Below are positions 5,718 through 19,645 of a DNA stretch of 38,822 nt, piece after piece. A program made the position numbers and the translations under genes. Source of the stretch: a virus (Duplodnaviria; Caudoviricetes). Numbering within the stretch: position 1 is the first letter of the stretch; each line of letters opens with the position of its first letter. The stretch lies in IMG/VR virus record IMGVR_UViG_3300030090_004705, positions 1 to 38,822 of that record; one strand, 5' to 3'. Below the pieces are notes generated by a model that was not told the origin of the DNA, ran no database searches, and was given only the letters and a program-made list of their open reading frames with translations.

Positions 5718-6426
5718 CGCTGCGGGCTTGCTCGTCGTAGTCGCCAGCTCGCAGGATGCGGGCCAGCCTTGCCGTGCGTATGGCGTCTGCTGTTTGCAGC
5801 CCTGCCTTTAGGTATGCGCCAACCACCTTTGGCCACATCTCCTGCACCGTGACCAGGTCGCCCAGGATTTTGTTGGCACCTACTGGGCCAACGCCTTTAA
5901 CGCCCTTGTACCCATCGGTGCTGTCGCCGGTCAATGCCTGTGCCATCCATGCACGGTCAGCATCCATGGCGCTGATAGTCTCCACCTCTTGGTTGGCAAG
6001 CAGGCGGCATGGCACGGTCCGCATGTCCTTGTCGATCGACACGATGACTGGGTCAGGCACGCTGCCATCGGTGGCAAGCAGGCCCATGCAGTCATCAGCC
6101 TCAAGCATTGGCTTGACCACAGTCGAGTAGTTGTCAGTCATCCACTGGCGCATGGCAGACAGGCCTAGCGGCTTGCGCTTGCCCAGGCGGTTGGACTTGT
6201 AGTCGGGAAACTCTTCGTGCCGAAACGTGGGGTAACTGCTGAAGCAGATCATCACGTCGTCGTCGTCAGCAATGGCTCGGTAGCCATCAAGCATGGTGAC
6301 GATCGTGTTCTTCACGTCACCCTCGTCAAGGTGCAAGGTATGCACCGTCTCTGTCCATCGGATGTCCTGCTCGTTGGCAGTGCAGCCGACGTAATTGAGC
6401 CAGTCGCCGTCGCAGAGAAGAGTCAT
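5683..6426 (-). CDS. gp6: 5'-3' exonuclease (T7 gp6-like)
   Basis: Motifs DGD, YKSNR, EADD, SIDKD and GDSTDGYKGVKGVG. Confidence 0.93.
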   Translation of the reverse strand: MTLLCDGDWLNYVGCTANEQDIRWTETVHTLHLDEGDVKNTIVTMLDGYRAIADDDDVMICFSSYPTFRHEEFPDYKSNRLGKRKPLGLSAMRQWMTDNYSTVVKPMLEADDCMGLLATDGSVPDPVIVSIDKDMRTVPCRLLANQEVETISAMDADRAWMAQALTGDSTDGYKGVKGVGPVGANKILGDLVTVQEMWPKVVGAYLKAGLQTADAIRTARLARILRAGDYDEQARSVRLWVPPAAPA

Positions 6427-8048
6427 AACCCGAAGTAGCTGGACATTGGAACAGTCAGGCGCCCTGTCTTGCGGTCAAACACCAGTTCATCCAGCGGTCC
6501 TGTCTCGCCGGAAAACCTGTTCTTGAGCATGCGCAGCTGCAACTTGTTGCGCTCTTCATCGCTGCCCTGCTGGTTGCGTTCTGCGCCTATGCAAAGGTCC
6601 GAGAGCTGGGCTATGGCGTGGCTTCCCCTAAGTTGCGACAGGCTGGTCTGCCCGCCCTCCTCGTGGCCGCGGCCTTCGGGCCGCTTGAGGTGGGACACCA
6701 GCACTAGGCCAACGCCTGTCTGCTCCACCACCTGCCGCAGCTTGGTGCATGTCACGTCTAGGGCACGTCGTTCATCCAGATCGGCAATGCCGCTGACGAC
6801 AATGGTGAGGTGGTCGACAACAACAACGTCGACGCCCTCTGACGTCGCCAGGTATTTGATCTGCTCGACCAGGCGGTCGGGGTCCATGCTCCCGAAGTGG
6901 TCGTAGAGGAACAGGTTGCCGGTGCTCATCAGCTCGTCAAAGGCAGTGCGCACCTTTGGATCGCCGACCAGCTCCGGGTCCAGGTGGATGGGCATGTTGA
7001 TGTCGACGCCCACGATGCCCTGCAGTGAGCGCTGCATGCTTTCCTCCAGCATGAACACGCCAACCTTCAGCCCTGCCCGCAAAAAGTGGACGATCCACTC
7101 ACGGCAGATGGAGCTCTTGCCTGCACCACTGCCTGCCGCCAGCGTCACCATCTCGCCTTTGCGAAAGCCATGAGCAGCAGCGTTGAGCTTGGGCCATGGG
7201 TACTGGCAGATAGCTGATGCGCCTGGCTTGACCAGCACATCCCACAGCTCTGATGCGTTCTTAATGCTGTCAGGCCTGACGGGTGTGGCCTTCCACAGCA
7301 GATCCTTCAGGTGTTCCCCCTCACCTGCAACCAACATTTCGTTGGCATCTTTGCGTGGCAGCCTGCAGATCGCTGCCTTTCCTGGCGGCAAAACTTGCAT
7401 TGCATCCTCGGCTGCATTGATACCCGGCTCATCCGAATCAAAGCACAAAACAATGCGGTTGAATTGACTCAACCACTGCAAGTTTGCGGCCAAGTATTTA
7501 CGAGCAGACGATGCACCGTTGGGCAGTGACACCACAGGGAACTTATTGCCCTGCACTTGTGACACTGACATGCAGTCAATCTCGCCTTCGGTGACAACAC
7601 AAAACATGTTTGTCCCATTGCCATGGTTCTGTCGCCACAGGTGTTGACCGAACAGCTGCAGCCCAGACGTCTGTCCTATCCAGCGAAAGCGCTTGTCTTT
7701 GTACCGCAGGTGCTGTGCTGTCCTCTTGCCCAGCTGATCCCGGTAGGTTGCGACCTGCACCAGCTCACCGTGGTGGCTGGTCACGCCGTAATCAAACTTG
7801 GTGGTGGTGTCTAACGTCAGGCCCCTTGCTTCAAGGGCCAATGGCTTTACGAATTCAAGCAGCTCCACTTTTGGCGGGGGTGAGGGTTTGTATTTAGGCA
7901 GCCGCTCAGGTGACGGGCTCTTTTCAATGACGGCGTCGCAGCTGTAGCAGTACAGATGTCCGTCATCAAAGCGGGCTGCGTTGTCCTTGCTGCCGCACTG
8001 TGGGCACGGCTCATGTTTGACAAACTTTGACTTGCGTCGTTCCTTCAT
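6423..8048 (-). CDS. gp4: DNA primase/helicase (T7 gp4-like)
   Basis: Zn finger CPQC..CYSC, TOPRIM motifs TEGEID and FDSD, Walker A GSGAGKS, VVVDHL, SHLKR, LRGSHAIAQLSD and KNRFSG. Likely start is the ATG at 8048 (MKERRKSKF). Confidence 0.96.
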   Translation of the reverse strand: MKERRKSKFVKHEPCPQCGSKDNAARFDDGHLYCYSCDAVIEKSPSPERLPKYKPSPPPKVELLEFVKPLALEARGLTLDTTTKFDYGVTSHHGELVQVATYRDQLGKRTAQHLRYKDKRFRWIGQTSGLQLFGQHLWRQNHGNGTNMFCVVTEGEIDCMSVSQVQGNKFPVVSLPNGASSARKYLAANLQWLSQFNRIVLCFDSDEPGINAAEDAMQVLPPGKAAICRLPRKDANEMLVAGEGEHLKDLLWKATPVRPDSIKNASELWDVLVKPGASAICQYPWPKLNAAAHGFRKGEMVTLAAGSGAGKSSICREWIVHFLRAGLKVGVFMLEESMQRSLQGIVGVDINMPIHLDPELVGDPKVRTAFDELMSTGNLFLYDHFGSMDPDRLVEQIKYLATSEGVDVVVVDHLTIVVSGIADLDERRALDVTCTKLRQVVEQTGVGLVLVSHLKRPEGRGHEEGGQTSLSQLRGSHAIAQLSDLCIGAERNQQGSDEERNKLQLRMLKNRFSGETGPLDELVFDRKTGRLTVPMSSYFGL

Positions 8049-8478
8049 CGAACCAAGCGGTGGGTATGTGGCCCTCGCACCAGACGAAGCCATGGCGATC
8101 GGCCCATTGCCCGTAAGTCAGTGACTTGGGGGCGCGGCTGAGCTTGACCTTGGCGTTCTGGAAACACAGGCGGATGTCGACATGTGGATGCGCAGCCTTT
8201 ACGGCAAGCATCTTGCGCCTGTCAGTTGCACTGAACAGCCCCTTTGTCTCCACCACACAGGTGGGCAGGATGAAGTCAGGCGTATAGACAGCCTCGATGC
8301 GGTAAGGCAGGGCCCGGGTTTCGTACTGAAACACCAGGCCACGCTTGTCCAAGCTAGAGGCAACATTCGCCTCGAACTTGCTGCGATACCTACCAGTTGC
8401 CTGCTTCTTCGGTTGCCGGCTCTTCCGTGCTTGTGATGTCGCCCGCTTTGAACCCGTTGGTTTCTGCTTGGAAGCCAA
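8011..8478 (-). CDS. gp3: Endonuclease I / Holliday junction resolvase (T7 gp3-like)
   Basis: Motifs YRSKFE, YTPDF, VETKG, DRRKM and YGQWADRHGF. Start uncertain: TTG at 8478 preceded by GAGGGG is favoured, GTG at 8508 is the alternative. Confidence 0.92.
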   Translation of the reverse strand: MASKQKPTGSKRATSQARKSRQPKKQATGRYRSKFEANVASSLDKRGLVFQYETRALPYRIEAVYTPDFILPTCVVETKGLFSATDRRKMLAVKAAHPHVDIRLCFQNAKVKLSRAPKSLTYGQWADRHGFVWCEGHIPTAWFDEGTTQVKVCQT

Positions 8479-9010: not shown

Positions 9011-11391
9011 GTGATGAAGTAGTCGGAAGATTTCACGAGAGAAGGATCGAGCTGCCCAGCTTGTGGCCGTGACAGCTCAACCTTGGTGTGTGTGAGGAGC
9101 TGATCCGATATGCGATCGAACCAGCGCTCTGAATAAAGCGCAGCAAACGCTGCCCGTACAGAGTTGCGTAGTTGTGTCATCTCTGCAGGCGTTGTGACGA
9201 AACAGTCATGAACGCCGGCCAAGTTGACCACGCCCTTGCTTGCTGCGTCAATGCTTGCCAGCGCCATGTGGCTGGCATCCATGGAGTGCAGGACGTTTGG
9301 CGACAGTGCGTTAGCCATGCGCCTGCCATCCAGCTCGACCTCGTCGTCGACCTTGATCTTGATGTCAAGCCTGACGTCCGACAAATACTTGAGGCGGATG
9401 CGCTTGACGTGGTCTGCCATGTACTGCTGCTGCACCAGCAGCCCGCTTGGTGTGCGCCATTGCAGTGGCATGTCGGCCTTGCCGGCTGCCTTGCCGATGG
9501 CACGGAACCACTTCATGGCCTGCTCAGCTGGCCCAATCAATGCCGATGCTTCCTTGTGCAGGATGCGCGCCATGTAATGCACGGTCTGCACTGCCCCCTT
9601 GCGCGTGGCCCAGGACTTGCCGCTGAATAATTCCTGCGTGCGCTCGACTGCCCAGTCGTAGCAATGGAAGTAGAAGGCGCTGTGGGTGGCACTGTAGGGG
9701 AGGCACATCACAACTGGTTTCGCCAGCGACCTGTCGGGCTGCAGCTTCAGCCATTTGCGTGCGTCCTCGTCGCCATTGCTGCGCAGCACCTGCAGCACTC
9801 GGTCGATCACTGCGCTGTAGATGTCTTGCGGTGTGTCGGATGGCAGCAGATTGGTCAGCTTGCCCATGCCCTCGTCTAGCAGCAGGCCGCTGTAGTGCTG
9901 GATGCCCGAGCATGTGCAGTCCAGCATGGTGGGCAGCTGGCAGGCGTAGCCGTAGCCCTGCTGCATGAACTCGGCGTAGCTGCGGCAGAAAGCAAGGAAG
10001 GACCACGGTTTTTTGGCACGCATCCAAAACTCGGCGTGCTGCCACGGGTCAGCAGCAGCTGCCCCTATGCGCTCTGCTTCCTGATGCACCCAGTCAATGC
10101 GCGCACGAAAGTCGAGCCCACCGTGCCCATACATGTTTGCCCCATGCACCCGCAGCCAGTCAGCCTGCTCCTCTGTCGTGATGGGCTGGCCGTCACTAAA
10201 CACCAGCAGACAGCGGCTGACGTCGTTGCCCTGGGGGTTGAGGTACGGCGGGCGGTAGTAGTAACGCCCCCTGAAGTCGAGCGACATGGGGAAGTGCAGC
10301 CGTTGCTCGCCGACAAAACGCTTCGCCACCCACAGGCATTTGGCAATGGCAATACGCGCTGTCTTGGTTTTGTCGTTCTTCTCGTGGATGCGGCGGGCCT
10401 GCATGCGCCACTTGCGTACGCCTTCGCTGTCCTCCGGCAAGTGCTTGGGGTACGGCGGCACCGGCCACCCTTCCCGTGGCATGAGACAGCCCACCTCAAT
10501 GCTGTTGTCGTAGGCATGCAGCACCTGCTCCAGCATCCAGCCATTGACCTGCCAGGCCACGGCCTGGTGCAAGTTGGCAGCCTGCAGGTACGGCTCGTCT
10601 CCCTTGGTGTGCTGTGCCACCAGCTCTGCGTTGGACTTCATCAACACCAACGGAATGCTGTCAGTCAGGTAGCCCCCGCTCAGCGGTGACGTCCATGGTC
10701 GTGGTGGCACCAGCATGGGCAGGTAGCTGGGTGTCATCAGCTTCTGCTGCTGCTTCACGTCCTGCACCCATGCCATGCACTGGTCAGTTGGCACCACCAC
10801 CCTGCGTGGCGGCTTGTAGCTGCGGTCGACGGTGATCTCGACGATGCCAACTTCCTTGGCTATCAGTTCAACTAGAAACACACCCGAGGCCATGCGCTCA
10901 CGGGGATGCCAATGCTCTGTCCGTTGCATGTGACTGATCGCAGCGACCTGGTGCTTGCGCCTGCTGCGGCCACGTCGGAACGTGCGCAGCTCTTGTGCGC
11001 TTGCTCGGTCGAGCATGGTCTCGATCCACAGCTTCTCGGCGACCTCCGCTGCGACGTGGTGCAGCGTGTTGCAGGCGCTGATGCTGTCCACTACCACCCG
11101 CACGGCAGTTGCAGCGACCTGCTGGGGTGGAAGGTGTGTCACGGGTGCAAGCAGGGCGAACGCTTGGCCCGCCTTGCCTGCCTGTATGCGGCGCCGAACA
11201 GCACGGAGATGGATCACTAATTGATCCACCCCCGCTGCTGTTAGTGCTTCCCCCCATGTGCTGAGTGATTCCATCCGCCCCTTGCGGTGGCGGTTGGCGA
11301 TCAACTCAACGCGATCCCGCCCGAGCGTGAGCATCTCCCGCTCTAGTTCCAGCTGGTCTGCTGTCGACCTTGTTGAGCTTGGCGATGGCAT
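9007..11391 (-). CDS. gp1: Single-subunit DNA-directed RNA polymerase (T7 gp1-like)
   Basis: DFRGRYY, PQGND, motif A DCTCSGIQH, motif B RSLAKPVVMCLPY, PNVLHSMDASH and motif C VHDCF. Confidence 0.97.
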   Translation of the reverse strand: MPSPSSTRSTADQLELEREMLTLGRDRVELIANRHRKGRMESLSTWGEALTAAGVDQLVIHLRAVRRRIQAGKAGQAFALLAPVTHLPPQQVAATAVRVVVDSISACNTLHHVAAEVAEKLWIETMLDRASAQELRTFRRGRSRRKHQVAAISHMQRTEHWHPRERMASGVFLVELIAKEVGIVEITVDRSYKPPRRVVVPTDQCMAWVQDVKQQQKLMTPSYLPMLVPPRPWTSPLSGGYLTDSIPLVLMKSNAELVAQHTKGDEPYLQAANLHQAVAWQVNGWMLEQVLHAYDNSIEVGCLMPREGWPVPPYPKHLPEDSEGVRKWRMQARRIHEKNDKTKTARIAIAKCLWVAKRFVGEQRLHFPMSLDFRGRYYYRPPYLNPQGNDVSRCLLVFSDGQPITTEEQADWLRVHGANMYGHGGLDFRARIDWVHQEAERIGAAAADPWQHAEFWMRAKKPWSFLAFCRSYAEFMQQGYGYACQLPTMLDCTCSGIQHYSGLLLDEGMGKLTNLLPSDTPQDIYSAVIDRVLQVLRSNGDEDARKWLKLQPDRSLAKPVVMCLPYSATHSAFYFHCYDWAVERTQELFSGKSWATRKGAVQTVHYMARILHKEASALIGPAEQAMKWFRAIGKAAGKADMPLQWRTPSGLLVQQQYMADHVKRIRLKYLSDVRLDIKIKVDDEVELDGRRMANALSPNVLHSMDASHMALASIDAASKGVVNLAGVHDCFVTTPAEMTQLRNSVRAAFAALYSERWFDRISDQLLTHTKVELSRPQAGQLDPSLVKSSDYFIT

Positions 11392-12205
11392 CTCTCAGCT
11401 GTGGGTTGGCGAGGTGTGCGTACTGCTCCGTAACGGTGATGCTCTTGTGGCCCAGGATCTCTTTCACCACATACAAATCGACGCCACGCTGCACCAGTCG
11501 GCTGGCGCAGGTGTGCCGCAGCATGTGCAAGACCCAGTGCTTGTCGTCTTCCCAGCCCAGGTCGCCCCTGGCGCAGTCCCAGACATATTCCAGGTGGCCC
11601 CGCTCCAGCGTGTTGAACACTGAGCCGGTTAGGTTGCGCCGCTTGATGCGACGGCCGACGATCTGCCGCACTCGGTCAGTCATGGGCACCGACCTGGGCT
11701 TGTCTGCCTTGTTCTTCCAAACACTGATGATGTTCTGCTCCATGTCCACGTCGGCAGGGATGACACGGAACAGCTCGCCGACACGCATGCCGGTGTCAAT
11801 CAAAACAATCAACGCCTCGCATACCTGCAGCTCGTTCTCGTTGCAGCACCAATTGATCAGTGCGTCTTCCTCCTCAACTGACATGAAGCGCAGCCGGGAC
11901 GATGTCACCTTCATGGTCGGGATGTGCGGCCGCTTGCTGCAACCATCACGGCGCATGGCGTCCGTGTAAATGGCCTTCAACACCGCCAGCTTTTTGTTGA
12001 TGGTGGCGGGTGCGTTGCCGCTGTCCTTCAGCGTCTGGATGTAGGCGTCGACGGTGCTGGTTGTGATGTCGTCAAGCTTGACCTGGCGGCCGAAGTGATC
12101 CAGCACCAGGCGCATGTTGCACAGCGCCTTGCGTTCGTTGCCGCTGCCTGCGTAGCGGACTTGCTCTGTGACCTTGGCTGCCTCGTGCAGCGTCCAACTA
12201 GACAT
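11306..12205 (-). CDS. int: Tyrosine recombinase / integrase
   Basis: Complete catalytic set: TGMRVGEL (R), KNK (K), HMLRH (HxxR), LGH and QYAH (Y). N-terminal SAM-like region contains PATINKKLAVLK. Confidence 0.95.
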   Translation of the reverse strand: MSSWTLHEAAKVTEQVRYAGSGNERKALCNMRLVLDHFGRQVKLDDITTSTVDAYIQTLKDSGNAPATINKKLAVLKAIYTDAMRRDGCSKRPHIPTMKVTSSRLRFMSVEEEDALINWCCNENELQVCEALIVLIDTGMRVGELFRVIPADVDMEQNIISVWKNKADKPRSVPMTDRVRQIVGRRIKRRNLTGSVFNTLERGHLEYVWDCARGDLGWEDDKHWVLHMLRHTCASRLVQRGVDLYVVKEILGHKSITVTEQYAHLANPQLRDAIAKLNKVDSRPAGTRAGDAHARAGSR

Positions 12206-12515
12206 AGCTGGCCCCCTTCAAGAAAGCCTGGTGGGCAATGGTCTGCTGCTCAAAGGTAAGCTGCTTGCCCTGGCTGTAAGCGGCCAGCCATTGCTCGAAG
12301 CGCTGTTCGTTTAGCTCTTCCCGTGTCTGTGTGATCGGCGGTGCATCGGGCAGCATCATCCAGTGCGTCACGCCCTTGCGGTACTGCACACAGTCCCATG
12401 AGCCGCTCATCCACTTGCCGATGGGGTCGTACAGCAGCACCAGGCCCTGGTTGTTGGCGTGCGCTGCTGTTGGTTGCTTGTCGTTGATGTCGTAAATCAG
12501 TGAGTCGTTAGTCAT
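12198..12515 (-). CDS. Hypothetical early protein with a DUF551-like motif
   Basis: ATG at 12515 overlaps the upstream gene end. VTHWMMLPDAP resembles the THWxPLPxxP motif. Confidence 0.6.
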   Translation of the reverse strand: MTNDSLIYDINDKQPTAAHANNQGLVLLYDPIGKWMSGSWDCVQYRKGVTHWMMLPDAPPITQTREELNEQRFEQWLAAYSQGKQLTFEQQTIAHQAFLKGASYV

Positions 12516-12666
12516 TGGTCTGTTCCTCGATTTTTTTGAGCAGGTGGGTGCCGAACAGCGACGCAATGGCAATCATCTGGCTGTCCGGAGCCCGGCCGAT
12601 TGTGTCCTTGTACCAGTCTCGAAAGATCTGCTGGAGCTGGAGTGTGGTCGGGCCTTTTCGATCCAT
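12508..12666 (-). CDS. Hypothetical early protein (52 aa)
   Basis: MDRKGPTTLQLQQIFRDWYKDTIGRAP...; packs tightly against the downstream gene. Confidence 0.55.
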   Translation of the reverse strand: MDRKGPTTLQLQQIFRDWYKDTIGRAPDSQMIAIASLFGTHLLKKIEEQTND

Positions 12667-12730
12667 TGCGTGCCGTGATAGTTGAGAAAGGCGCCCCATA
12701 CCAAGGCATTGAGCGCCGTGAGGATAAGGA

Positions 12731-13129
12731 TCAGTCGCACTGCTTGGTGTACGCGTCGGACAATTCTTGACAGCGCTTTGCCCTGACCCTGTAGGCCTGG
12801 TCGAGCTGCTCTTCCGCCTCCTTCAATGCGTCAAAGTTGGCCGCAAGCTGTCGGCTGAGCTCCGCCATCTGCTTCATGGTCTGTTCCATGAGGTAGTTCA
12901 TCCGCCCGTTGGCGTCCTCGTCCTCTAGGTCCTCCCATGCCGCAGCAATCAGGTCACGCTGATCGAACACCGCCCGTAGGTGGTACTGCGTTGTGTAAAG
13001 CGTGCTCCTTGCGTCGCATGTTTTCGAGCGGACGTTGCTGATAACAGCTGCTGCGTCCTTGATCTGCTTGTCAGCCTCAAGCGCCTCCGCATAGGTGGCG
13101 GGCTTCTTGGGTCGGCCTCGTGTGGCCAT
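12731..13129 (-). CDS. Early protein with an AT-hook-like N-terminus and coiled coil
   Basis: GGAGG 5 nt before the ATG. Begins MATRGRPKKP and has a helical heptad-like C-terminal half. Confidence 0.7.
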   Translation of the reverse strand: MATRGRPKKPATYAEALEADKQIKDAAAVISNVRSKTCDARSTLYTTQYHLRAVFDQRDLIAAAWEDLEDEDANGRMNYLMEQTMKQMAELSRQLAANFDALKEAEEQLDQAYRVRAKRCQELSDAYTKQCD

Positions 13130-13135
13130 GTTGTC

Positions 13136-13190
13136 CTCCGTGGTGGGTGTTGTGATTCCATTTCCCGTGGGGGGGCGCCCCCCGACGGGA
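13136..13190 (-). promoter_or_regulatory. Early-leader element 1: GC hairpin + ACACCCACCAC + SD
   Basis: mRNA sense: tcccgtcggggggcgcccccccacggga-aatggaatcaca-acacccaccac-ggagg-acaac-ATG. Confidence 0.65.
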
Positions 13191-13358
13191 TTAGTTGGCG
13201 TCGATCTGTCGCTGAATCTCTGCGTTGCGTTGCCGGATGTTCTCCATCAGCTCACCGTGGCCAGCTGTTGGGTCAAACTTGGCGATCAGCCAGGCCGCAC
13301 CGATGGCGGCCGCGGCTGTCGCGTACAGGATCAGCAAGAGATAGGTGCGTAGCTGCAT
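13191..13358 (-). CDS. Small single-TM early protein (55 aa, not in ORF track)
   Basis: Translated by hand: MQLRTYLLLILYATAAAAIGAAWLIAKFDPTAGHGELMENIRQRNAEIQRQIDAN. TGATG coupling to the upstream gene. Confidence 0.7.
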   Translation of the reverse strand: MQLRTYLLLILYATAAAAIGAAWLIAKFDPTAGHGELMENIRQRNAEIQRQIDAN

Positions 13359-13576
13359 CAGCCCATCTCCGACATGTTGGGGAACGTGTAGGTCTCCCGA
13401 GCGTGCAGCAGTTCGCTGGTGATTTCAAACCACGGCGCAACTAGGTCGTAGTGCGTCGGGTGTGCCTTGCAGTCGGCGTCAAGCTGCCTGGCATGGGCCA
13501 GGGCCTGGGCCTTGGTGCTGAAGCTGTCGACGTAGTCGACGCAACCGCAGTCGTGGGCGTAGACGTGAAAAGCCAT
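13358..13576 (-). CDS. Hypothetical early protein (72 aa)
   Basis: GGAGG 4 nt before the ATG at 13576. Begins MAFHVYAHDCGCVDYVDSFSTKAQALAHA. Confidence 0.7.
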   Translation of the reverse strand: MAFHVYAHDCGCVDYVDSFSTKAQALAHARQLDADCKAHPTHYDLVAPWFEITSELLHARETYTFPNMSEMG

Positions 13577-13581
13577 AGGGC

Positions 13582-13640
13582 CTCCGTTGGTGGTGGGTGT
13601 GGGTGCTGGTGAGGGCACCAGAGAGCCCACGAGGGGCTCT
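13582..13640 (-). promoter_or_regulatory. Early-leader element 2: twin hairpin + ACACCCACCAC + SD
   Basis: mRNA sense: agagccc-ctcgt-gggctct ctggtg-ccct-caccag caccc acacccaccac caac ggagg ccct ATG. Confidence 0.65.
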
Positions 13641-13649
13641 AGGTTGCCG

Positions 13650-14126
13650 TCATTCGCCGTAGTAGAACAGGCCGGTGAACCAGTCCAGGGCGTCGGCGTC
13701 GGCGTCCGTGTAGCAGGTCCATGGCGTGCCCCAGTGCTGGTACTCCAGCTGGAAGCCGCAGGGCTCGATGCCGCAGGCAGGCGAGCCGCGCAGCTCGCCA
13801 GTGATGCGGAGCGCAGGGCCGCCCCACGACAACAGGATCATGTAGTCGCCGGGCTCTGCTGGGTAGCCGGGTGCATGCCAACCGCTGCGCACCTCAAGGC
13901 TGAGGATGCTCTCCCGCTGGCGCACCTCAATGGATTCGGCTGTGTCGGCGTGGTTGGTGCCGTCGTAGCCGTGCTCCTTGAGCTGCAGCTTGGCCTCCCG
14001 CGTCAGGTCGCGGCCCTCCGTCTCTTCCTGGCAGAACAGCCACGCCTCGTGGGCGGCGCTGATGTCTGCATTCCAGGCGGCGGCGTTGTCCAGGCCGTGG
14101 TTGGCCTCTGTGGTGGCTGTGGTCAT
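13650..14126 (-). CDS. Conserved-looking hypothetical phage protein (158 aa)
   Basis: GAGG before the ATG at 14126. Motifs EVRSGW, ILLSWGGPALRITGEL and LEYQHWGTPW. Confidence 0.75.
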   Translation of the reverse strand: MTTATTEANHGLDNAAAWNADISAAHEAWLFCQEETEGRDLTREAKLQLKEHGYDGTNHADTAESIEVRQRESILSLEVRSGWHAPGYPAEPGDYMILLSWGGPALRITGELRGSPACGIEPCGFQLEYQHWGTPWTCYTDADADALDWFTGLFYYGE

Positions 14127-14134
14127 TGGTCGAC

Positions 14135-14186
14135 CTCGTGTGGTGGGTGTTGGTGGTGAAACCACCAGAGAGCCCCGGAGGGCTCT
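14135..14186 (-). promoter_or_regulatory. Early-leader element 3: twin hairpin + ACACCCACCAC + SD
   Basis: mRNA sense: agagccc-tccg-gggctct c tggtggt-ttc-accacca acacccaccac ac gagg tcgacca ATG. Confidence 0.65.
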
Positions 14187-14195
14187 GTGTTGGGT

Positions 14196-14456
14196 TCAGT
14201 AGTGGCAGGCGGCCATGGTGGAGCAGGGATTAGTGAGCCAGTCAGGCTCTTCCTCCTCCTCCTCGCCGTCCAGCCGTTGGTTGACCTCCACTTCATCGTC
14301 CAGGGCCTGGGCCAGTGGCTTGGCGATGGCGTCCGTGTCGATGACTTCGGACAGGATGATGAGCAGGTCGGAAGCTAGGCCCTCTGGGTCGTCGTTGCCC
14401 ATGTAGTAACGGGCAAACGATGCAAGGGCTGCTTCGAGCTTGGCGTGTTGGTCCAT
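14196..14456 (-). CDS. Acidic hypothetical early protein
   Basis: ATG 3 nt after the upstream stop. Very Asp/Glu-rich (DGEEEEEEPD). Confidence 0.7.
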   Translation of the reverse strand: MDQHAKLEAALASFARYYMGNDDPEGLASDLLIILSEVIDTDAIAKPLAQALDDEVEVNQRLDGEEEEEEPDWLTNPCSTMAACHY

Positions 14457-14459
14457 GGA

Positions 14460-14663
14460 TCAATAGCCGAGAAAGGAAAGCAGGCCGCGGCCGTCGCGGT
14501 TGAGGATGGCCAGCATCTCGTTGGAGTCGCTGGTGTAGTCCTCGATATTGCGGACGACCTCGTCGTAGCTGTTGCCGTGCTCCTCGAACAGCTGGCGGGT
14601 GGCCTCTAGTGAGGCCTCGCCGTTGCGTCCGCAGAGCTCAAGGAAGGATTCCTCGTAGGTCAT
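14460..14663 (-). CDS. First early gene, acidic hypothetical protein (67 aa)
   Basis: ATG at 14663 follows the CAACACCCACCAC leader motif. Sequence MTYEESFLELCGRNGE...LLSFLGY. Confidence 0.7.
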   Translation of the reverse strand: MTYEESFLELCGRNGEASLEATRQLFEEHGNSYDEVVRNIEDYTSDSNEMLAILNRDGRGLLSFLGY

Positions 14664-14667
14664 GGCG

Positions 14668-14740
14668 GTGGTGGGTGTTGGTGACCTGTTTGAGCCTGGG
14701 CGGCCAAACAGAGAAGAACAGGCAGCCGGGCCGGTTGCCC
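14668..14740 (-). promoter_or_regulatory. Early-leader element 4: twin hairpin + ACACCCACCAC
   Basis: mRNA sense: ggcaaccgg-c-ccggctgcc ... ctgtttg-gccgcccaggct-caaacag gtcacca acacccaccac cgcc ATG. Confidence 0.55.
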
Positions 14741-14746
14741 GTACCC

Positions 14747-14777
14747 AGCATACCAACCAAGGGGACTGCCTGTCCCC
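14747..14777 (-). promoter_or_regulatory. Candidate host sigma70 extended -10 promoter for the early arm, with a palindrome over the -35 position
   Basis: Minus strand TG-g-TATGCT (14755-14747). Palindrome GGGGAC-tgcct-GTCCCC at 14761-14777. Confidence 0.45.
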
Positions 14778-14916
14778 CTGGACCCCACCACCCTAGTCGA
14801 TGTGGCCGGCAATGGCCACCCCGAAGGGGGGTGAGGCCGGCTGCTCCTATATGCGTAAGCCCCTCAGATTTTTCCGCCAGAAATCAGCGTCAGCAGTACC
14901 GCAGGGAGCGAACAGG

Positions 14917-14952
14917 GATCTAGTAAGAGATCTAGTAGGGACTCTTACTAGA
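14917..14952. repeat. Nested direct and inverted repeat cluster
   Basis: TCTAGTAAGAG (14919-14929) and CTCTTACTAGA (14942-14952) form a perfect 11-bp inverted repeat. GATCTAGTA is directly repeated at 14917 and 14929. Confidence 0.8.
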
Positions 14953-15021
14953 GGGGCATGGCGTTCTTCTTATGGGGACAGCCAGTGGTGGCAAGGGGTT
15001 TCGGGTGGGTATAGTGCGGGG

Positions 15022-15088
15022 GTCTTAGCGACGCAGAGCTGGGACAGGGCTTCTCTCCTGTGGTGGGTGTAGAGGCCCTTGCTTTTTT
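15022..15088 (+). ncRNA. Candidate small antisense RNA against early-gene leaders
   Basis: TATAGT at 15010-15015, then a 9-bp stem (AGGGCTTCT/AGAGGCCCT, one G-U pair) enclosing the 16-nt loop CTCCTGTGGTGGGTGT, then T6 at 15083-15088. The loop is complementary to four early leaders. Expression is not shown. Confidence 0.4.
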
Positions 15089-15126
15089 CTTCGATATGCT
15101 GCGGATAACGGGGAAAAGTAAAAGCA

Positions 15127-15354
15127 ATGGAGCTGCAGGACTTACTAAGTGAATTGCACGAGGGATTAGCGCAGCACTTGAAAGAAAAGCTGGATGAGGG
15201 AACGATCAGCACAAGTGAATTAAATGTGCTGCGGCAGTTCTTGAAGGACAATCAAATCAGTGCTCAGCCTGCGGAAGGGACACCGTTTGGTGATCTGGCC
15301 AAGGCATTGCCTGATATTGAAAACGTGGTGAGCTTCAAGCGGCGGGTTAGTTAA
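15127..15354 (+). CDS. terS: Terminase small subunit (T7 gp18-like)
   Basis: LSELHEGLA...SELNVLRQFLKDNQI pattern and TAATG coupling to terL. Confidence 0.8.
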   Translation: MELQDLLSELHEGLAQHLKEKLDEGTISTSELNVLRQFLKDNQISAQPAEGTPFGDLAKALPDIENVVSFKRRVS

Positions 15355-17081
15355 TGAAGAAGACGGCATGGCAGCCGCTGCCGGAACCATTTGACAAAGA
15401 CTTCCGGTATTTCCTGGTGGTGGTGTGGCGGCATCTGCAGTTGCCGGATCCGACACCAGTGCAGCTGGACATTGCGGAGTACATGCAGCAGGGGCCGAAG
15501 CGGCGGATTGTTGAGGCGTTCCGCGGTGTGGGCAAGAGCTGGATGGCTGCGGCTTACACGCTGTGGCTGTTGAGGAATGACCCGCAGAAAAAGATCATGG
15601 TGGTGTCAGCCAGCAAGGTGCGGGCTGATGACTTTGCGCAGTTCTGCCTGCGGTTGATTCGGGAGATGCCGTTGCTCCAGTGCCTGGAGCCAGATCGTGA
15701 TGACCAGCGCAGTGCAAGCAATCGCTTTGACGTGCGTCCCGCCATACCGGACCAGAGTCCGTCGGTGAAGTCCGTAGGGGTCTTTGGCCAGCTGACCGGA
15801 AGCCGGGCCGACCTGATTCTTGCTGATGACACCGAGGTTCCGAACACCAGCTGGACTGTCGGCATGCGGGAGAAGCTGATCTCCTGCGTCGGTGAGTTCA
15901 ACGCCATCCTGAAACCAGGGGGCGAGATCATGATGCTGGGCACGCCCCAGACAGAGGAGAGCGTCTACAACAAGCTGCGCATGCGCGGCTACGACTGCCG
16001 CATCTGGCCAGCTAGGTATCCCGAAAAGCCGGCCAAGTACGGCGATGCCCTGGCGCCAATGATCCTGGAGGGCTGTGACAGCAGCCCAAACAAGCCGACA
16101 GACCCTGGCAGGTTTTCTGACTTGGACCTGCTGGAGCGTGAAGCGTCCTATGGCCGATCGCAGTTCACTCTGCAGTTCCAGCTGGATACCACCCTGTCTG
16201 ACCTGCAGCGCTTTCCGCTGCGTGTCTCTGACCTCATGGTGCTGGAGGTCGACGACCACGTCCCCGAAAAGGTGGTGTGGTCAGCAGGAGCGGAGTACCG
16301 CATCACAGATCTGCCGTCAGTCGGCTTCAGCGGCGACTACTACTACCGGCCAGCGTTCATCCACGGCGACTGGCTGGAACTTGATGGCTGCGTCATGTTC
16401 GTTGACCCTTCAGGCAAGGGCACTGACGAGACGGCCTATGCGATCGTCGGCCAGCTCAACGGCAACCTGTACGTCCTAGAGGTTGGTGCGTACACCGATG
16501 GCTACTCAGACGAGGTCCTAGAGGGCCTGGCAAAGGCCGCAAAGCGCCGTCAGGTGACATTGATCCTGCTGGAGGACCAGTTTGGTCAGGGCATGCTGCA
16601 GAGCCTGCTGCAGCCCTTTCTGCGCAAGTACCACCCCTGCACGATTGAGCCAGTGCGGAGCAACATGCAGAAGGAACGGCGCATCATCAATGCGCTGGAG
16701 CCGGTGATGAACCAGCACCGCCTGGTGGTCAACCGCTCAGTCATTGAGCGCGACAGTCGCAGCAGGGACGACGAGTCGATTGAAACAGCGCTGGCCTACC
16801 AGTTGTTCCATCAACTGACGCATATTACGGTCGAAAGAAATTGCTTACAGCATGACGACCGCCTCGACGCCCTGGCGGGGGCTATTCAGTACTGGAATGA
16901 GTCGCTGGCTATTGATGAAGATCGAGCAATTAAGGAGCGCCAGGCCGAGCTATGGGACCTCGAAATGGAAGCGTATATGGGAAACATTCAGGGGGCGTTG
17001 GACGCAAAGGTATTGGGGATACCCTTGGATCAGATGGGACGCTCAGATGCAGAAGAGTGGATCCAGCTCGCAGGTCGCTAA
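15354..17081 (+). CDS. terL: Terminase large subunit (T7 gp19-like)
   Basis: AFRGVGKSW, GSRADLILADDTE, LGTPQ, FVDPSGKGTDET and HDDRLDALA. Confidence 0.96.
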   Translation: MKKTAWQPLPEPFDKDFRYFLVVVWRHLQLPDPTPVQLDIAEYMQQGPKRRIVEAFRGVGKSWMAAAYTLWLLRNDPQKKIMVVSASKVRADDFAQFCLRLIREMPLLQCLEPDRDDQRSASNRFDVRPAIPDQSPSVKSVGVFGQLTGSRADLILADDTEVPNTSWTVGMREKLISCVGEFNAILKPGGEIMMLGTPQTEESVYNKLRMRGYDCRIWPARYPEKPAKYGDALAPMILEGCDSSPNKPTDPGRFSDLDLLEREASYGRSQFTLQFQLDTTLSDLQRFPLRVSDLMVLEVDDHVPEKVVWSAGAEYRITDLPSVGFSGDYYYRPAFIHGDWLELDGCVMFVDPSGKGTDETAYAIVGQLNGNLYVLEVGAYTDGYSDEVLEGLAKAAKRRQVTLILLEDQFGQGMLQSLLQPFLRKYHPCTIEPVRSNMQKERRIINALEPVMNQHRLVVNRSVIERDSRSRDDESIETALAYQLFHQLTHITVERNCLQHDDRLDALAGAIQYWNESLAIDEDRAIKERQAELWDLEMEAYMGNIQGALDAKVLGIPLDQMGRSDAEEWIQLAGR

Positions 17082-17283
17082 GCCAAAGCCTTACGTCGTG
17101 CGGCTGCCTTCCGGTTTCCTGGGAGAGTGGGGTGGCATGGCCAAAGGTGGCTACCAGACAGTCGTGCTGGCCAAAAGCGCAGAGGATGCGTTTGAAGTAG
17201 CCAGCCTGTGCGACTGCTGGGAGCAGCTACCGTTCGACGTCGAAGGCTGTCAGGTATTTCCAAAGGATCCGTATGCGCGATGA
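17047..17283 (+). CDS. Hypothetical protein (start uncertain)
   Basis: Fills the gap between terL and the next gene. The 3' part of ORF 16852..17283 (YVVRLP...TVVLAKSAEDAFEVA) looks protein-like. Confidence 0.5.
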   Translation: MQKSGSSSQVAKPKPYVVRLPSGFLGEWGGMAKGGYQTVVLAKSAEDAFEVASLCDCWEQLPFDVEGCQVFPKDPYAR

Positions 17284-17455
17284 AAGCGATTGGCCAGGGT
17301 TGGATGAATCAATCCTGAGGCGTCTCGACGAGCAGTACCCAGAGAAATGTCCAGAAGCGGACTGGACTGATCGGCAGATATGGATTTATGTGGGGCAACG
17401 CAGTGTGGTTCGCATGTTGCGTGCCGTTTATTCTGAGCAAATCAACGAGGAGTAA
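17273..17455 (+). CDS. Small conserved podovirus protein upstream of portal
   Basis: LDEQYPEKCP...YVGQRSVVRML motif, and AAGGA upstream of the ATG. Confidence 0.7.
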   Translation: MRDESDWPGLDESILRRLDEQYPEKCPEADWTDRQIWIYVGQRSVVRMLRAVYSEQINEE

Positions 17456-17457
17456 CC

Positions 17458-17886
17458 ATGTGCGGTGGTGGCGGAGGCGGCGGTAACGACAGAGCGCAGC
17501 AGCGTCGCCATGAAGAGCAGATGGCTCTGCAGCGTGAGCAAATGGCTGAGCAAAAGCGTCAGTTTGAGCTGCAGCTCCAGCAACAACAGCAGCGCTACGA
17601 AGAACAGCGTGCAGCTGCAATGGCCGCGCCGGCTCCCGCTCCCAACCCAATTGCAGAGGCGACAGCGGCCTCTGCGCCCGTAGCTGCGGAAGTGGCACCT
17701 ACGGCAACACCTGCTCCTCCGTCAGCTACGGATCCTTTGTACGCCCCTAACGAAACAGCAGGTGGCGGCATGGAACAGCAGCAAACATTGGCTATTGCGC
17801 CTCGCGCGCAGCGTTCGGGCATGGGTCGCCGTCGCTTCCGCACCAGCGTTGCAGGTGGTTCAGGTGGTTTGTCCATCCCCGGATAA
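17458..17886 (+). CDS. Pre-portal virion/assembly protein (position of T7 gp6.7/gp7.3)
   Basis: GAGGAG SD, an MCGGGG N-terminus and a C-terminal GRRRFR...GLSIP, directly before portal. Confidence 0.65.
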   Translation: MCGGGGGGGNDRAQQRRHEEQMALQREQMAEQKRQFELQLQQQQQRYEEQRAAAMAAPAPAPNPIAEATAASAPVAAEVAPTATPAPPSATDPLYAPNETAGGGMEQQQTLAIAPRAQRSGMGRRRFRTSVAGGSGGLSIPG

Positions 17887-17890
17887 TTAG

Positions 17891-19645
17891 ATGCGCTTAA
17901 ATCTGACTAGCAAGGTCGATCGTCAGCCCAGCGATTACGGCCGTAGTGGGCGCTCAGCGGCTGCGCGCTATGAGCAGCTGCGTGGCAACCGCTCGCCGTT
18001 TTTGCAGCGCGCCCGTGATTGCAGCAAGGTCACGCTGCCTGGTCTTATCCCAGACGAGAACTACGGCGATCACGGCAGCTTCAAGACGCCATATCAAAGC
18101 CTTGGAGCCCGCGGGGTCAATTACCTGGCAAACCGCCTGCTTATCACCCTGTTTCCGCCTAACAGTGCGTTTTTTAAGCTGGAGGTTGATGGCCTCGCGT
18201 TGCGCATTGAGCAGGCAGGGCCTGAGATTAAAACCGAACTAGACAGCGCGCTGGTAAAGGTTGAGCATGCAGTGATGCAAGTAATGGAGCTGGCCAATGG
18301 CCGCGCCTCATTGCACGAAGCCTTTAAGCATTTGCTCGTCGGCGGCAACGCCCTGCTGTACGTCTCCGAAGAAGGAATACGAGTTATCCATCTGGATCGT
18401 TATGTGCTTGTGCGTGACCCTATGGGCCACGTCACTGAGATTGTGGTTGAGGAAGAGGTCTACCCAGAGGCCCTTCCCACGGGATTCATCGACTCGGAGG
18501 AGGATTATGAGGACGATGAATACGACGAAGACGAGCCGGCGCAGCGGACGCTGAAGATTTACACCTGCGTCAAGTTCTACGACGGGCAGTGCCACTGGTA
18601 TCAGGAGTGCAAGGGACGTGAGATCCCAGGCACTCATGGCATGAGCTCTGAGGAGAACAGCCCTTGGATTCCACTCCGCTTCGATCGCACGGACACCGAA
18701 GAGTACGGTCGCTCATACGTTGAGCAGTACTACGGCGACCTGCTGGCGCTGGAGTCGCTGTATCAGGCGGTCTTGGAAGGCAGTGCTGCCGCGGCCAAAA
18801 TCCTGTTTTTGGTTAACCCCAACGGCACCACCCGCCCGCGCACGCTGGCCAGTGCAGCCAATGGCGCAATCGTGCAGGGCAACGCCCAGGACGTCACAGT
18901 CGTTCAAAGCCAAAAGGGGCAAGATCTGCAGATTGCAAGCGCAACAATCGACCGCATTGAGGGTCGTTTGCAGTTTGCGTTCATGCTCAACACTGCAATT
19001 CAACGCCCAGGTGAGCGCGTAACAGCGGAGGAAATCCGCTACATGAGCCAAGAACTAGAGGCGTCAATTGGCGGCCTGTATTCCATCCTGACGCAAGAGT
19101 TGCAGCTGCCGTTGGTGCGCAGGCTGATGCACATTTTGAACAAGCAACGCAAGCTGCCTGCTTTCCCGAATGGCAGCAGCGGCGAGCCACTGGTCAATCC
19201 AAAGCCTGTGACAGGTCTTGAAGCCATTGGCCGCGGCGATGACCGCAACAAGCTGATTGAGTTCATTACAGCAGCCCAGACCACACTTGGCCCTGAGGTG
19301 ATGATGCAATACATCAACGTCGATGAGGCGTTGCGACGCCTGGCTGCTAGCGGTTCGATTGATACAACGAACTTGGTTAAAACAAAAGAACAGCTACAAC
19401 AGGAAGCGGAAGCTGCTGCACAAGCGCAGCAGCAGTCAATGGAGCAGCAACAGCTGATGGACATGATGAAGTCCCCAGCCGCTGCACAAATTGCCAAGAA
19501 CTACACCCAACCAGGAGCTACCTATGGCCCCCAGTTCACGGAAGAAGGCGGAGTCCCCGGACCCCAGCCCAACGCCCTCCCAGACGCAGTCGGAGGCACC
19601 GGAATCCCTAGTGGGCCCGCCGGCATCGCCGGAGCCGCCGGCTGA
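17891..19645 (+). CDS. gp8: Portal / head-tail connector (T7 gp8-like)
   Basis: PYQSLGARGVNYLA, YGRSYVE, ERVTAEEIR, LGG-like IGGLYS, ELQLPLV and TGLEAIGRG. Confidence 0.96.
   Translation: MRLNLTSKVDRQPSDYGRSGRSAAARYEQLRGNRSPFLQRARDCSKVTLPGLIPDENYGDHGSFKTPYQSLGARGVNYLANRLLITLFPPNSAFFKLEVDGLALRIEQAGPEIKTELDSALVKVEHAVMQVMELANGRASLHEAFKHLLVGGNALLYVSEEGIRVIHLDRYVLVRDPMGHVTEIVVEEEVYPEALPTGFIDSEEDYEDDEYDEDEPAQRTLKIYTCVKFYDGQCHWYQECKGREIPGTHGMSSEENSPWIPLRFDRTDTEEYGRSYVEQYYGDLLALESLYQAVLEGSAAAAKILFLVNPNGTTRPRTLASAANGAIVQGNAQDVTVVQSQKGQDLQIASATIDRIEGRLQFAFMLNTAIQRPGERVTAEEIRYMSQELEASIGGLYSILTQELQLPLVRRLMHILNKQRKLPAFPNGSSGEPLVNPKPVTGLEAIGRGDDRNKLIEFITAAQTTLGPEVMMQYINVDEALRRLAASGSIDTTNLVKTKEQLQQEAEAAAQAQQQSMEQQQLMDMMKSPAAAQIAKNYTQPGATYGPQFTEEGGVPGPQPNALPDAVGGTGIPSGPAGIAGAAG

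What the first reader, a model, noticed from the sequence alone, without database searches (positions are those of the whole stretch)
15003..15090. Candidate trans-acting small RNA whose hairpin loop is antisense to the ribosome-binding regions of four early genes (RNA-based early shut-off or lysogeny switch)
Seen: on the + strand, TATAGT (15010-15015) precedes a 9-bp stem (15046-15054 with 15071-15079, one G-U) that encloses exactly the 16-nt loop CUCCUGUGGUGGGUGU, followed by U6. The loop's complement is ACACCCACCACAGGAG. It matches the minus-strand leader of the gene starting at 14126 at 15/16 (14135-14150) and of the gene at 13129 at 15 nt with one bulge (13136-13150). It matches the genes at 13576 and 14663 over an 11-nt core (13590-13600 plus the GGAG further on; 14668-14678). 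In the two best targets the pairing covers the Shine-Dalgarno. Read on the minus strand, this fifth copy has an SD but no ATG after it, and the G-U pair becomes an A-C mismatch, both favouring a + strand RNA. Known: P4 CI RNA and P1/P7 c4 RNA are precedents for antisense-RNA immunity. Inference: a phage with an intact integrase but no recognisable repressor could silence its early arm with one sRNA hitting several leaders. Polarity would then affect int and RNAP downstream. The RNA could act as lysogenic immunity or as the early-to-late switch. I know of no such system in T7-like cyanophages.
Basis: partly seen in the sequence, partly recalled or inferred. Interest (0 to 1): 0.88.

Follow-up and report, generated by a model that had tools for sequence, protein, structure and literature searches.

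The report
Phage small RNA mirroring early-gene leaders
A relative of cultured ocean cyanobacterial viruses carries a conserved hairpin, likely made as a small RNA, whose loop is the mirror image of a tag in front of four of its early genes, so the RNA likely switches those genes off by base pairing, though no transcript has been seen.

Summary
The window is a DNA-polymerase-less T7-like (MPP-C-like) cyanophage. A predicted 67-nt two-hairpin RNA (15022-15088, +) shows GUGGUGGGU in a loop. Its complement precedes four early start codons, which rank 1-4 of 35 leaders. The loop lies upstream of terS in 63 of 71 non-redundant loci, with a covarying stem. Of 143 other exact copies, 109 precede a start codon. 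Loop variants are mirrored in the leaders, tag and hairpin are lost together, and the antisense relation survives inversion of the early block. Best reading: a trans-acting multi-target translational repressor of early genes in the lytic cycle (0.62). Lysogenic immunity is not supported: only 10 of 42 loci have an integrase, and the cultured integrase-less P-SCSP1u has the element. No transcript or repression is shown. It works like GcvB and c4/CI but belongs to neither family; Rfam has no match. This scan noted similar anti-leader RNAs in other phage genomes; I found none for this lineage.

The parts
15010..15015 (+). -10 box (TATAGT) of a host sigma70-type promoter for the small RNA; weak -35-like hexamer at 14988-14993
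   Evidence: A TAnnnT box in register with the first helix in 56 of 62 loci, against 14-41 of 62 for nine control hexamers.
15022..15088 (+). Predicted small RNA of about 67 nt, two hairpins and a U run
   Evidence: (z -3.24). Ends are inferred; no transcript seen.
15022..15045 (+).
   Evidence: A 5' hairpin of varied sequence is present in relatives.
15046..15079 (+). Seed-bearing hairpin, probably also the terminator; loop 15055-15070, seed 15060-15070
   Evidence: 98.4% of cells paired, 7 of 9 pairs with changes on both sides in 27 selected sequences.
15083..15088 (+). U6 tract
   Evidence: Sequence.
15095..15100 (+). Second -10-like box (TATGCT), a possible separate promoter for terS
   Evidence: A TAnnnT box 24-38 nt before terS in 39 of 63 loci, no control run.
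14668..14678 (-). Tag 4 nt before the ATG of the first early gene (14460-14663); no SD
   Evidence: (-21.5 kcal/mol, rank 4 of 35).
14135..14150 (-). Tag plus SD of gene 13650-14126, 15/16 match; two hairpins upstream (about 14151-14190)
   Evidence: (-27.4, rank 2).
13590..13600 (-). Tag 13 nt before the ATG of gene 13358-13576; hairpins upstream (about 13601-13640)
   Evidence: (-26.0, rank 3).
13136..13150 (-). Tag plus SD of gene 12731-13129, 15 pairs with one bulge; hairpin upstream (about 13167-13192)
   Evidence: (-28.4, rank 1).
8057..8067 (-). Possible fifth target before an alternative primase/helicase start (ATG at 8048): 11 pairs, two of them G-U; overlaps endonuclease codons
   Evidence: -21.1. 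Present in 6 of 21 loci; doubtful.
14747..14752 (-). -10-like box (TATGCT with TG upstream), candidate host promoter of the early arm
   Evidence: Sequence; inferred.
14963..14988 (-). Single-copy conserved motif, back to back with the small-RNA promoter; candidate phage-RNAP promoter pointing at the genome end
   Evidence: 33 of 71 loci; one copy each in the window and in P-SCSP1u. The likeness to SP6/T7-type promoter layout is recalled.
14846..14876 (-). Conserved signature like the sequence around the start of the P-SSP7 terminal repeat; likely marks the virion DNA end
   Evidence: Compared by eye; contig ends were inconclusive.
15127..15354 (+). Terminase small subunit, the gene the element precedes

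Best explanation
The stretch 15022-15088 likely encodes a small RNA, likely made by the host polymerase, whose G/U-rich hairpin loop is complementary to a C/A-rich tag in front of four early genes; it would pair with those leaders and likely block ribosome loading, likely turning the early genes off as the lytic cycle moves on. Shown by sequence and relatives: the complementarity, the position of the tags 0-18 nt before early start codons, the covarying stem, the strand, and the joint change or loss of loop and tags. Inferred: transcription from the 15010 box, termination at the U run, pairing in the cell without Hfq, repression rather than activation, and the lytic role. More weakly inferred: the unit sits near the last-entering end of the virion DNA, so that completion of DNA entry would time the shut-off, together with terminase expression from the next promoter.
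For: Five exact copies against 0.05 expected. The four leaders rank 1-4 of 35. The loop motif is on the terS strand in 63 of 71 non-redundant loci and on the other strand in 1. Stem: 98.4% paired, 65 cells with double changes, slid controls 49-71%. The terS strand folds better in 58 of 59 segments; z -3.2 against -1.0 in the window. Of 143 other exact copies in 50 loci, 109 precede an ORF start; 0 of 8 downstream of terS do. In L111, L112 and L039 the very-early block is inverted and its tags flip with the genes, while the hairpin still reads antisense. Variant loops are mirrored in the leaders: in A-loop phages 8 T to 1 C at the facing base, against 24 to 145 in G-loop phages; both L006/L007 leaders mirror a U-to-C loop change; L080 leaders relax where its loop changed. 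L063 and L065 lost both hairpin and tags. One-base deviations in leaders are G-U compatible in 28 of 57, against 24 of 97 controls. A -10 box is in register in 56 of 62. The cultured lytic P-SCSP1u has the element, with two early leaders ranked 1 and 2 of 32. Precedent for a G/U seed silencing C/A-rich enhancers: GcvB (PMC3879156, abstract and introduction). MED4 lacks hfq and cyanobacterial Hfq binds RNA poorly (PMC10989914, passages).
Against: No transcript: only assembled contigs were available, and one RNA-run contig spans promoter to terS, which is uninformative. Loci are related, so counts are not independent events; each loop variant and the loss are about one event each. The 27 aligned sequences were picked for one pairing register, which inflates the percent paired. 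G-U compatible changes are all transitions, so that bias has a mutational explanation; G/U-rich strands also fold better by composition. Mismatched cases exist: an L169 leader keeps C facing A, and an L085 leader keeps A facing C. Several AT-rich phages have no exact tag, only degenerate ones. The -10 test is permissive (best control 41 of 62). A constitutive host promoter needs some delay to allow early expression, and the entry-timing step rests on a by-eye likeness, with contig ends inconclusive.
Confidence: 0.62

Rival explanations
1. Same RNA and pairing, but its main job is immunity: keeping an integrated or dormant genome quiet, or silencing the early genes of superinfecting kin.
For: The window has an intact integrase. 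The integrase gene itself carries the tag in L151 and L126, and RNAP in L146. The seed is nearly invariant, so kin would be cross-silenced. A host-type promoter would work in a prophage. c4 and CI are precedents (PMC5320573, PMC4825925, passages).
Against: Only 10 of 42 loci have an integrase; 0 of 5 whole genomes picked from the integrase-less group have PF00589. P-SCSP2 has an integrase and no element. T7-like cyanophages integrate but form no stable lysogens (PMC8776855, abstract). Immunity specificities usually diverge, whereas these tags stay matched. The three terL-bearing genome contigs found were MAG contigs; I did not examine them for host flanks.
Confidence: 0.15
2. The pairing runs the other way: abundant early mRNA leaders bind the loop, open the terminator and let transcription run into terS-terL (an RNA-triggered attenuator).
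For: In the window and most marine relatives the loop sits in the last hairpin before terS.
Against: In a second architecture the seed is in a 5' hairpin with a separate terminator-like hairpin behind it. A second -10-like box lies after the hairpin in 39 of 63 loci. It does not explain why the tags sit in the ribosome footprint.
Confidence: 0.06
3. The RNA activates or stabilises the early mRNAs, or the hairpin works on the minus strand as a decoy for a protein that binds the tag.
For: Sequence cannot give the sign of regulation. One leader (13576) has its SD paired in the predicted fold.
Against: The tags are mostly single-stranded and abut the SD or ATG, so pairing would occlude rather than free the site. 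Promoter, U run, G-U pairs and folding all favour the + strand.
Confidence: 0.07
4. All copies are DNA sites: phage-RNAP promoters, operators or recombination handles of early cassettes; the hairpin is incidental.
For: All five copies have one orientation in the window. Leaders share longer flanking repeats and hairpins. Joint change of copies also fits DNA sites.
Against: Orientation follows the mRNA, not the DNA. Spacing to the ATG varies from 0 to 18 nt. No tags precede structural genes in the window. The stem keeps G-U pairs. Another single-copy motif fits a phage promoter better.
Confidence: 0.05
5. The main targets are host mRNAs, and the phage tags are translation enhancers that match for that reason.
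For: The invariance of the seed across distant phages could reflect a fixed host target. One lineage carries the host Yfr1 11-mer in its first hairpin.
Against: Loop variants track the phage's own tags. No host genome could be searched here.
Confidence: 0.05

Closest known systems
GcvB sRNA of enterobacteria (PMC3879156; abstract and introduction read)
   Same: A conserved G/U-rich seed pairs with C/A-rich elements inside or next to the ribosome-binding sites of many mRNAs.
   Different: GcvB is a 200-nt Hfq-assisted host RNA with an unstructured seed and an amino-acid regulon. This is a 67-nt phage RNA with a loop seed aimed at the phage's own genes; no Rfam match.
c4 antisense RNA of phages P1/P7 (PMC5320573, passages) and CI RNA of P4 (PMC4825925, passages)
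   Same: A small phage RNA that uses loops to pair in trans with the phage's own mRNA near a ribosome-binding site.
   Different: c4 has three stem-loops and two loops a'/b', is cut from a precursor by RNase P and serves immunity. CI is processed and causes termination through seqA/seqC flanking it. Here: two hairpins, one seed, its own promoter, four or more separate leaders, and mostly no integrase.
P22 sar, lambda OOP and aQ, BTP1 STnc6030, VP882 VpdS, lambda PreS (review PMC12197685, parts 1-2 of 6 read)
   Same: Phage small RNAs that control phage development by base pairing.
   Different: They are single-target antisense RNAs or Hfq-dependent RNAs of temperate phages. In the parts read, none silences a set of the phage's own early leaders through a shared tag.
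Yfr1/Yfr10 sRNAs of cyanobacteria (PMC2190773, abstract)
   Same: A 54-69 nt two-hairpin layout in the same host group; one relative (L169) carries the Yfr1 11-mer.
   Different: The window's RNA lacks that 11-mer, and its seed is G/U-rich. The best Rfam score, in L169, is 21 bits against a cut-off of 43.
MPP-C cyanopodoviruses, P-SCSP1 group (PMC9860041; passages, sections 5 and 8)
   Same: TerL 81% and RNAP 58% identical; no DNA polymerase gene; terS-terL divergent from the early arm.
   Different: The window has 56% G+C, an integrase, and the whole late arm inverted. The paper's main text has no occurrence of 'promoter' or 'non-coding'.

Membership tests
c4 antisense RNA / P4 CI (Rfam C4) | Match to the Rfam model | tested here: not met
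   No such match at E<=5 in window 11000-18000; none at gathering score in 3 relatives.
c4 antisense RNA / P4 CI (Rfam C4) | Three stem-loops with two pairing loops a' and b' | tested here: not met
   Two hairpins and one conserved seed.
c4 antisense RNA / P4 CI (Rfam C4) | Processing from a longer precursor by RNase P | not testable with these tools
   No raw reads; a -10 box in register with the 5' hairpin suggests a primary transcript.
c4 antisense RNA / P4 CI (Rfam C4) | Role in lysogenic immunity | tested here: inconclusive
   Not coupled to an integrase; function not assayed.
GcvB | Homology to GcvB and position beside gcvA | tested here: not met
   No Rfam match; the neighbours are terS and early genes.
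GcvB | G/U-rich seed complementary to C/A-rich elements at several ribosome-binding sites | tested here: met
   (predicted pairing only).
Trans-acting multi-target base-pairing sRNA (class) | Stand-alone non-coding unit with promoter and terminator | tested here: inconclusive
   The boxes, fold and U run are present; no transcript evidence.
Trans-acting multi-target base-pairing sRNA (class) | Conserved structure with compensatory changes and a conserved seed | tested here: met
Trans-acting multi-target base-pairing sRNA (class) | Seed and targets change together | tested here: met
   Three variant loops and one loss, few independent events, with two mismatched leaders.
Trans-acting multi-target base-pairing sRNA (class) | Regulation shown and restored by compensatory mutations | not testable with these tools
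   Needs experiment.
Yfr1/Yfr10 | The ultraconserved 11-mer and an Rfam score above cut-off | tested here: not met
   Absent from the window's RNA; present in 1 of 71 loci, below cut-off.
Phage RNAP promoter | Copies before middle and late genes, with room for a leader before the ATG | tested here: not met
   Copies lie only in the early arm and the hairpin, some 0-2 nt from the ATG.
MPP-C cyanopodoviruses | T7-like core genes and no DNA polymerase gene | tested here: met
   no core-gene tree was built.

The most novel reading that the evidence does not exclude
An abundant clade of mostly integrase-less T7-like phages runs an RNA-only timer. A small-RNA gene at the last-entering end of the virion DNA fires once the genome is inside and silences a whole tagged set of early genes, which the phage recruits by adding a 9-nt tag. 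Because the seed is shared, it would also silence co-infecting kin. This would be a self-targeted sRNA regulon that replaces protein-based early shut-off.
Probability: 0.3. Interest if true: 0.88.

Novelty: new variant of a known kind. Interest (0 to 1): 0.76.

Why it matters
How T7-like cyanophages end their early phase is, to my knowledge, not settled. Lysogeny is not their known lifestyle (PMC8776855). A multi-target phage RNA aimed at the phage's own early leaders would supply a mechanism in a clade reported as highly abundant in surface oceans (PMC9860041). It is testable now, because the cultured P-SCSP1u carries the element and infects Prochlorococcus MED4, which lacks hfq; this would also be a clean case of chaperone-free multi-target pairing. 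The tag marks early host-takeover candidates among unannotated ORFs: 51 of 62 tagged ORFs had no Pfam hit, and the hits include ArdC, DUF7222 and DUF7249. Similar elements noted in unrelated phages by this scan would, if confirmed, make anti-leader RNAs a recurring phage strategy.

Tried and rejected
Expression: ten runs were offered, all as contigs. Four were laid and can show no strand, start or end, so they are not used as evidence. Rfam: nothing in the window or three relatives; a weak Yfr10 score in L169 only. Folding from 15016 gave a different, non-significant structure; rejected because it includes bases upstream of the likely start. Prophages in bacterial genomes: 3 terL hits, all MAG contigs, not examined for host flanks. 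Integrase-seeded search gave only 2 near-identical loci. A DNA-pattern scan gave 19 loci; 16 of the 18 new ones had a terS match and L104 and L105 had none, L104's copy lying inside an ORF. P-SSP7 and P-SCSP2 have no exact copy of the motif. Genome ends from contig ends: inconclusive. Primase as a fifth target: 6 of 21 loci and overlapping endonuclease codons, left doubtful. Functions of the four target genes: no PHROG or Pfam hit at E<=0.001, only weak hits for one, no Atlas look-alike for 12731-13129. Host-target scan: no cyanobacterial genome could be reached. Literature searches listed no paper on this element; subscription papers and supplements (for example motif tables of PMC2864571 and PMC9860041) were not seen. 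The GUGGUGGG/CCCACCAC text search listed only unrelated papers among the 15 of 207 shown.

Full report
Setting. The window is a near-complete virus record of a T7-like phage. RNAP, SSB, endonuclease, primase/helicase, exonuclease and an integrase lie on the minus strand; terS, terL, portal, capsid and tail genes lie on the plus strand; none of the 41 ORFs scanned is a DNA polymerase. TerL is 81% and RNAP 58% identical to Prochlorococcus phage P-SCSP1, of the MPP-C clade that lacks a DNA polymerase (PMC9860041; passages and sections 5 and 8 read). The host is not known; 56% G+C suggests Synechococcus (inference). The finding lies in the gap between the early arm and terS.

Observation. All coordinates check. 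The 11-mer occurs five times against 0.05 expected. From a start at 15019-15023 the RNA folds into two hairpins, 15022-15045 and 15046-15079, followed by U6 at 15083-15088. The z-score is -3.2 on the plus strand and -1.0 on the minus strand. The tags are mostly single-stranded in the predicted leader folds, each behind one or two hairpins.

Conservation. Searches with two terS proteins, a DNA pattern and terL gave 165 sequences including the window; 162 had a terS match, and 71 were left after removing near-duplicates and those with under 150 nt upstream. In 63 of the 71 the motif GTRGYGGG lies within 200 nt upstream of terS on the terS strand, and in 1 also on the other strand. Of the 8 without it, L080 has a variant loop, L063, L065 and L087 keep promoter and first hairpin but lack the second, and P-SCSP2 is co-linear. 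Two layouts exist: the seed in the last hairpin (the window and most AT-rich loci), or in a 5' hairpin right at the start with a terminator-like hairpin behind. I aligned 27 of 59 distinct segments, those of the commonest pairing register, leaving out three of the other layout and four near-duplicates. There 98.4% of stem cells pair, 7 of 9 pairs show changes on both sides, and slid controls give 49-71%; the selection inflates the first number. The terS strand folds better in 58 of 59 segments, with 116 G-U against 60 A-C juxtapositions; base composition favours that strand anyway. A TAnnnT box lies in register with the first helix in 56 of 62 loci, against 14-41 for nine control hexamers and 29-33 for shifted offsets. 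A second such box precedes terS in 39 of 63, without control.

Targets in relatives. In 50 loci with at least 1.5 kb upstream there are 143 exact copies outside the hairpin; 109 are followed within 22 nt (observed 0-18) by an ATG that opens an ORF, and none of the 8 copies downstream of terS is. A few of the 109 are chance or coding overlaps, such as the primase site. Of 62 tagged ORFs scanned, 51 have no Pfam hit; the others include ArdC, two integrases, an RNAP, a primase and DUF7249/DUF7222 proteins. Cultured P-SCSP1u has the two-hairpin unit upstream of its terS, inside an over-long annotated CDS, and two early leaders rank 1 and 2 of 32, both with C-to-U changes that give G-U pairs.

RNA or DNA site? 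Four results favour RNA pairing. First, in L111, L112 and L039 the very-early block is inverted; its tags flip with the genes, while the hairpin still reads antisense. Second, loop and tags change together. In A-loop phages the facing base is T in 8 of 9 leader sites, against 24 of 169 in G-loop phages; both leaders of L006/L007 mirror a U-to-C change; L080 leaders relax where its loop changed. These are about three events, and two leaders disagree (L169, L085). Third, L063 and L065 lost hairpin and tags together, probably one event. Fourth, one-base deviations in leaders are G-U compatible in 28 of 57 cases against 24 of 97 elsewhere, though transition bias could give the same. The promoter rival is further weakened by spacings of 0-2 nt to the ATG, by the absence of tags before structural genes, and by a different motif at 14963-14988 (minus), found in 33 of 71 loci and once per genome in the window and P-SCSP1u, whose layout recalls SP6/T7-type promoters (recalled, untested).

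What is it for? The element is not tied to integration. Of 42 element-bearing loci that reach the RNAP start, 10 have an integrase; five whole genomes picked from the others have none anywhere; P-SCSP2 has an integrase and no element. T7-like cyanophages integrate transiently without stable lysogens (PMC8776855, abstract). I therefore prefer a lytic role: ending translation of the first genes. A host-type promoter needs a delay. A conserved signature at 14846-14876 resembles the sequence around the start of the mapped 206-bp terminal repeat of P-SSP7 (PMC3350473, part 1 of 3). If it marks the ends here, the early arm is at the left end and the RNA gene and terS promoter at the right end, which in T7 enters last (recalled). 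Completion of entry would then switch early genes off and packaging genes on. This step is by-eye and unconfirmed. Pairing of 11-15 G-C-rich bases from a loop could do without Hfq, which MED4 lacks (PMC10989914, passages). Polarity onto int and RNAP is not needed, and is doubtful without Rho (recalled).

Comparison. It works like GcvB, a G/U seed on C/A-rich elements at ribosome-binding sites (PMC3879156), and like c4/CI, loop-mediated pairing of a phage RNA with its own mRNA (PMC5320573, PMC4825925). It fails membership of both. Searches listed no description of this element; supplements and subscription papers were not seen. Earlier notes of this scan report comparable anti-leader hairpins in other cyanophages and an actinophage. 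They are unchecked AI notes and no support; look-ups by place, by terS sequence and by words found none for this lineage.

Verdict. A real, conserved, structured element with strong comparative evidence for pairing with early leaders: about 0.9 that the RNA is made, 0.85 that it pairs, 0.62 for repression as lytic early shut-off. No expression or functional data exist. New variant of a known kind; interest 0.76.

Noticed in passing
L169 about 7017-7098 (also L043, L044, L046): The first hairpin of the phage RNA carries the exact 11-mer that defines the host sRNA Yfr1; Rfam Yfr10 scores 21 bits, E 1.1, below cut-off. L154 and L063 have partial versions. Possibly a phage mimic of a host sRNA.
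   Followed up: partly
window 14963-14988 (-): Single-copy conserved motif in 33 of 71 loci, back to back with the small-RNA promoter and pointing at the likely genome end; candidate phage-RNAP promoter. No second copy before middle or late genes.
   Followed up: partly
window 14846-14876 and 14918-14955: Terminus-like signature shared by eye with P-SSP7, P-SCSP1u and P-SCSP2, next to short imperfect repeats; likely packaging or terminal-repeat region.
   Followed up: partly
L150, L157, L160, L167 and others; L077, L168 and others: First-hairpin region carries further lineage-specific motifs: AUCCCC in 12 and CCAGUG in 14 of 71 loci; possible second seeds with unknown targets.
   Followed up: no
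L111 and L112, 1-3 kb upstream of terS: The very-early gene block, with an ArdC gene in L111, is inverted relative to the RNAP arm in separate assemblies.
   Followed up: partly
L126:9586-9906, L125:3288-3662, L141:6854-7405 (+): Small ORFs with weak helix-turn-helix hits, below cut-off, end just before the small-RNA promoter in several high-G+C relatives; possible regulators absent from the window.
   Followed up: partly
L081 (P-SCSP1u) 36385-36699: The annotated terS CDS seems to start about 76 nt too far upstream and so covers the RNA hairpins; relatives place the start near 36623.
   Followed up: partly
L063, L065 early arm: Phages that lost the seed hairpin have early leaders that share a CCAGG(AGG) motif instead; no complementary copy was evident upstream of terS.
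   Followed up: no
window 8048 and 6423-8093 (-): The primase/helicase probably starts at the ATG at 8048 rather than 8093, behind a wobble-compatible tag variant.
   Followed up: partly
window 14784-14791 and ORF 14800-15072 (+): A one-mismatch tag in the opposite orientation precedes a 90-codon ORF that runs over the promoter region and the RNA; no family hit; probably chance.
   Followed up: no
L085, L086, L087: Contigs of this phage group are binned in three bacterial MAGs of unrelated taxa, probably as contamination.
   Followed up: no
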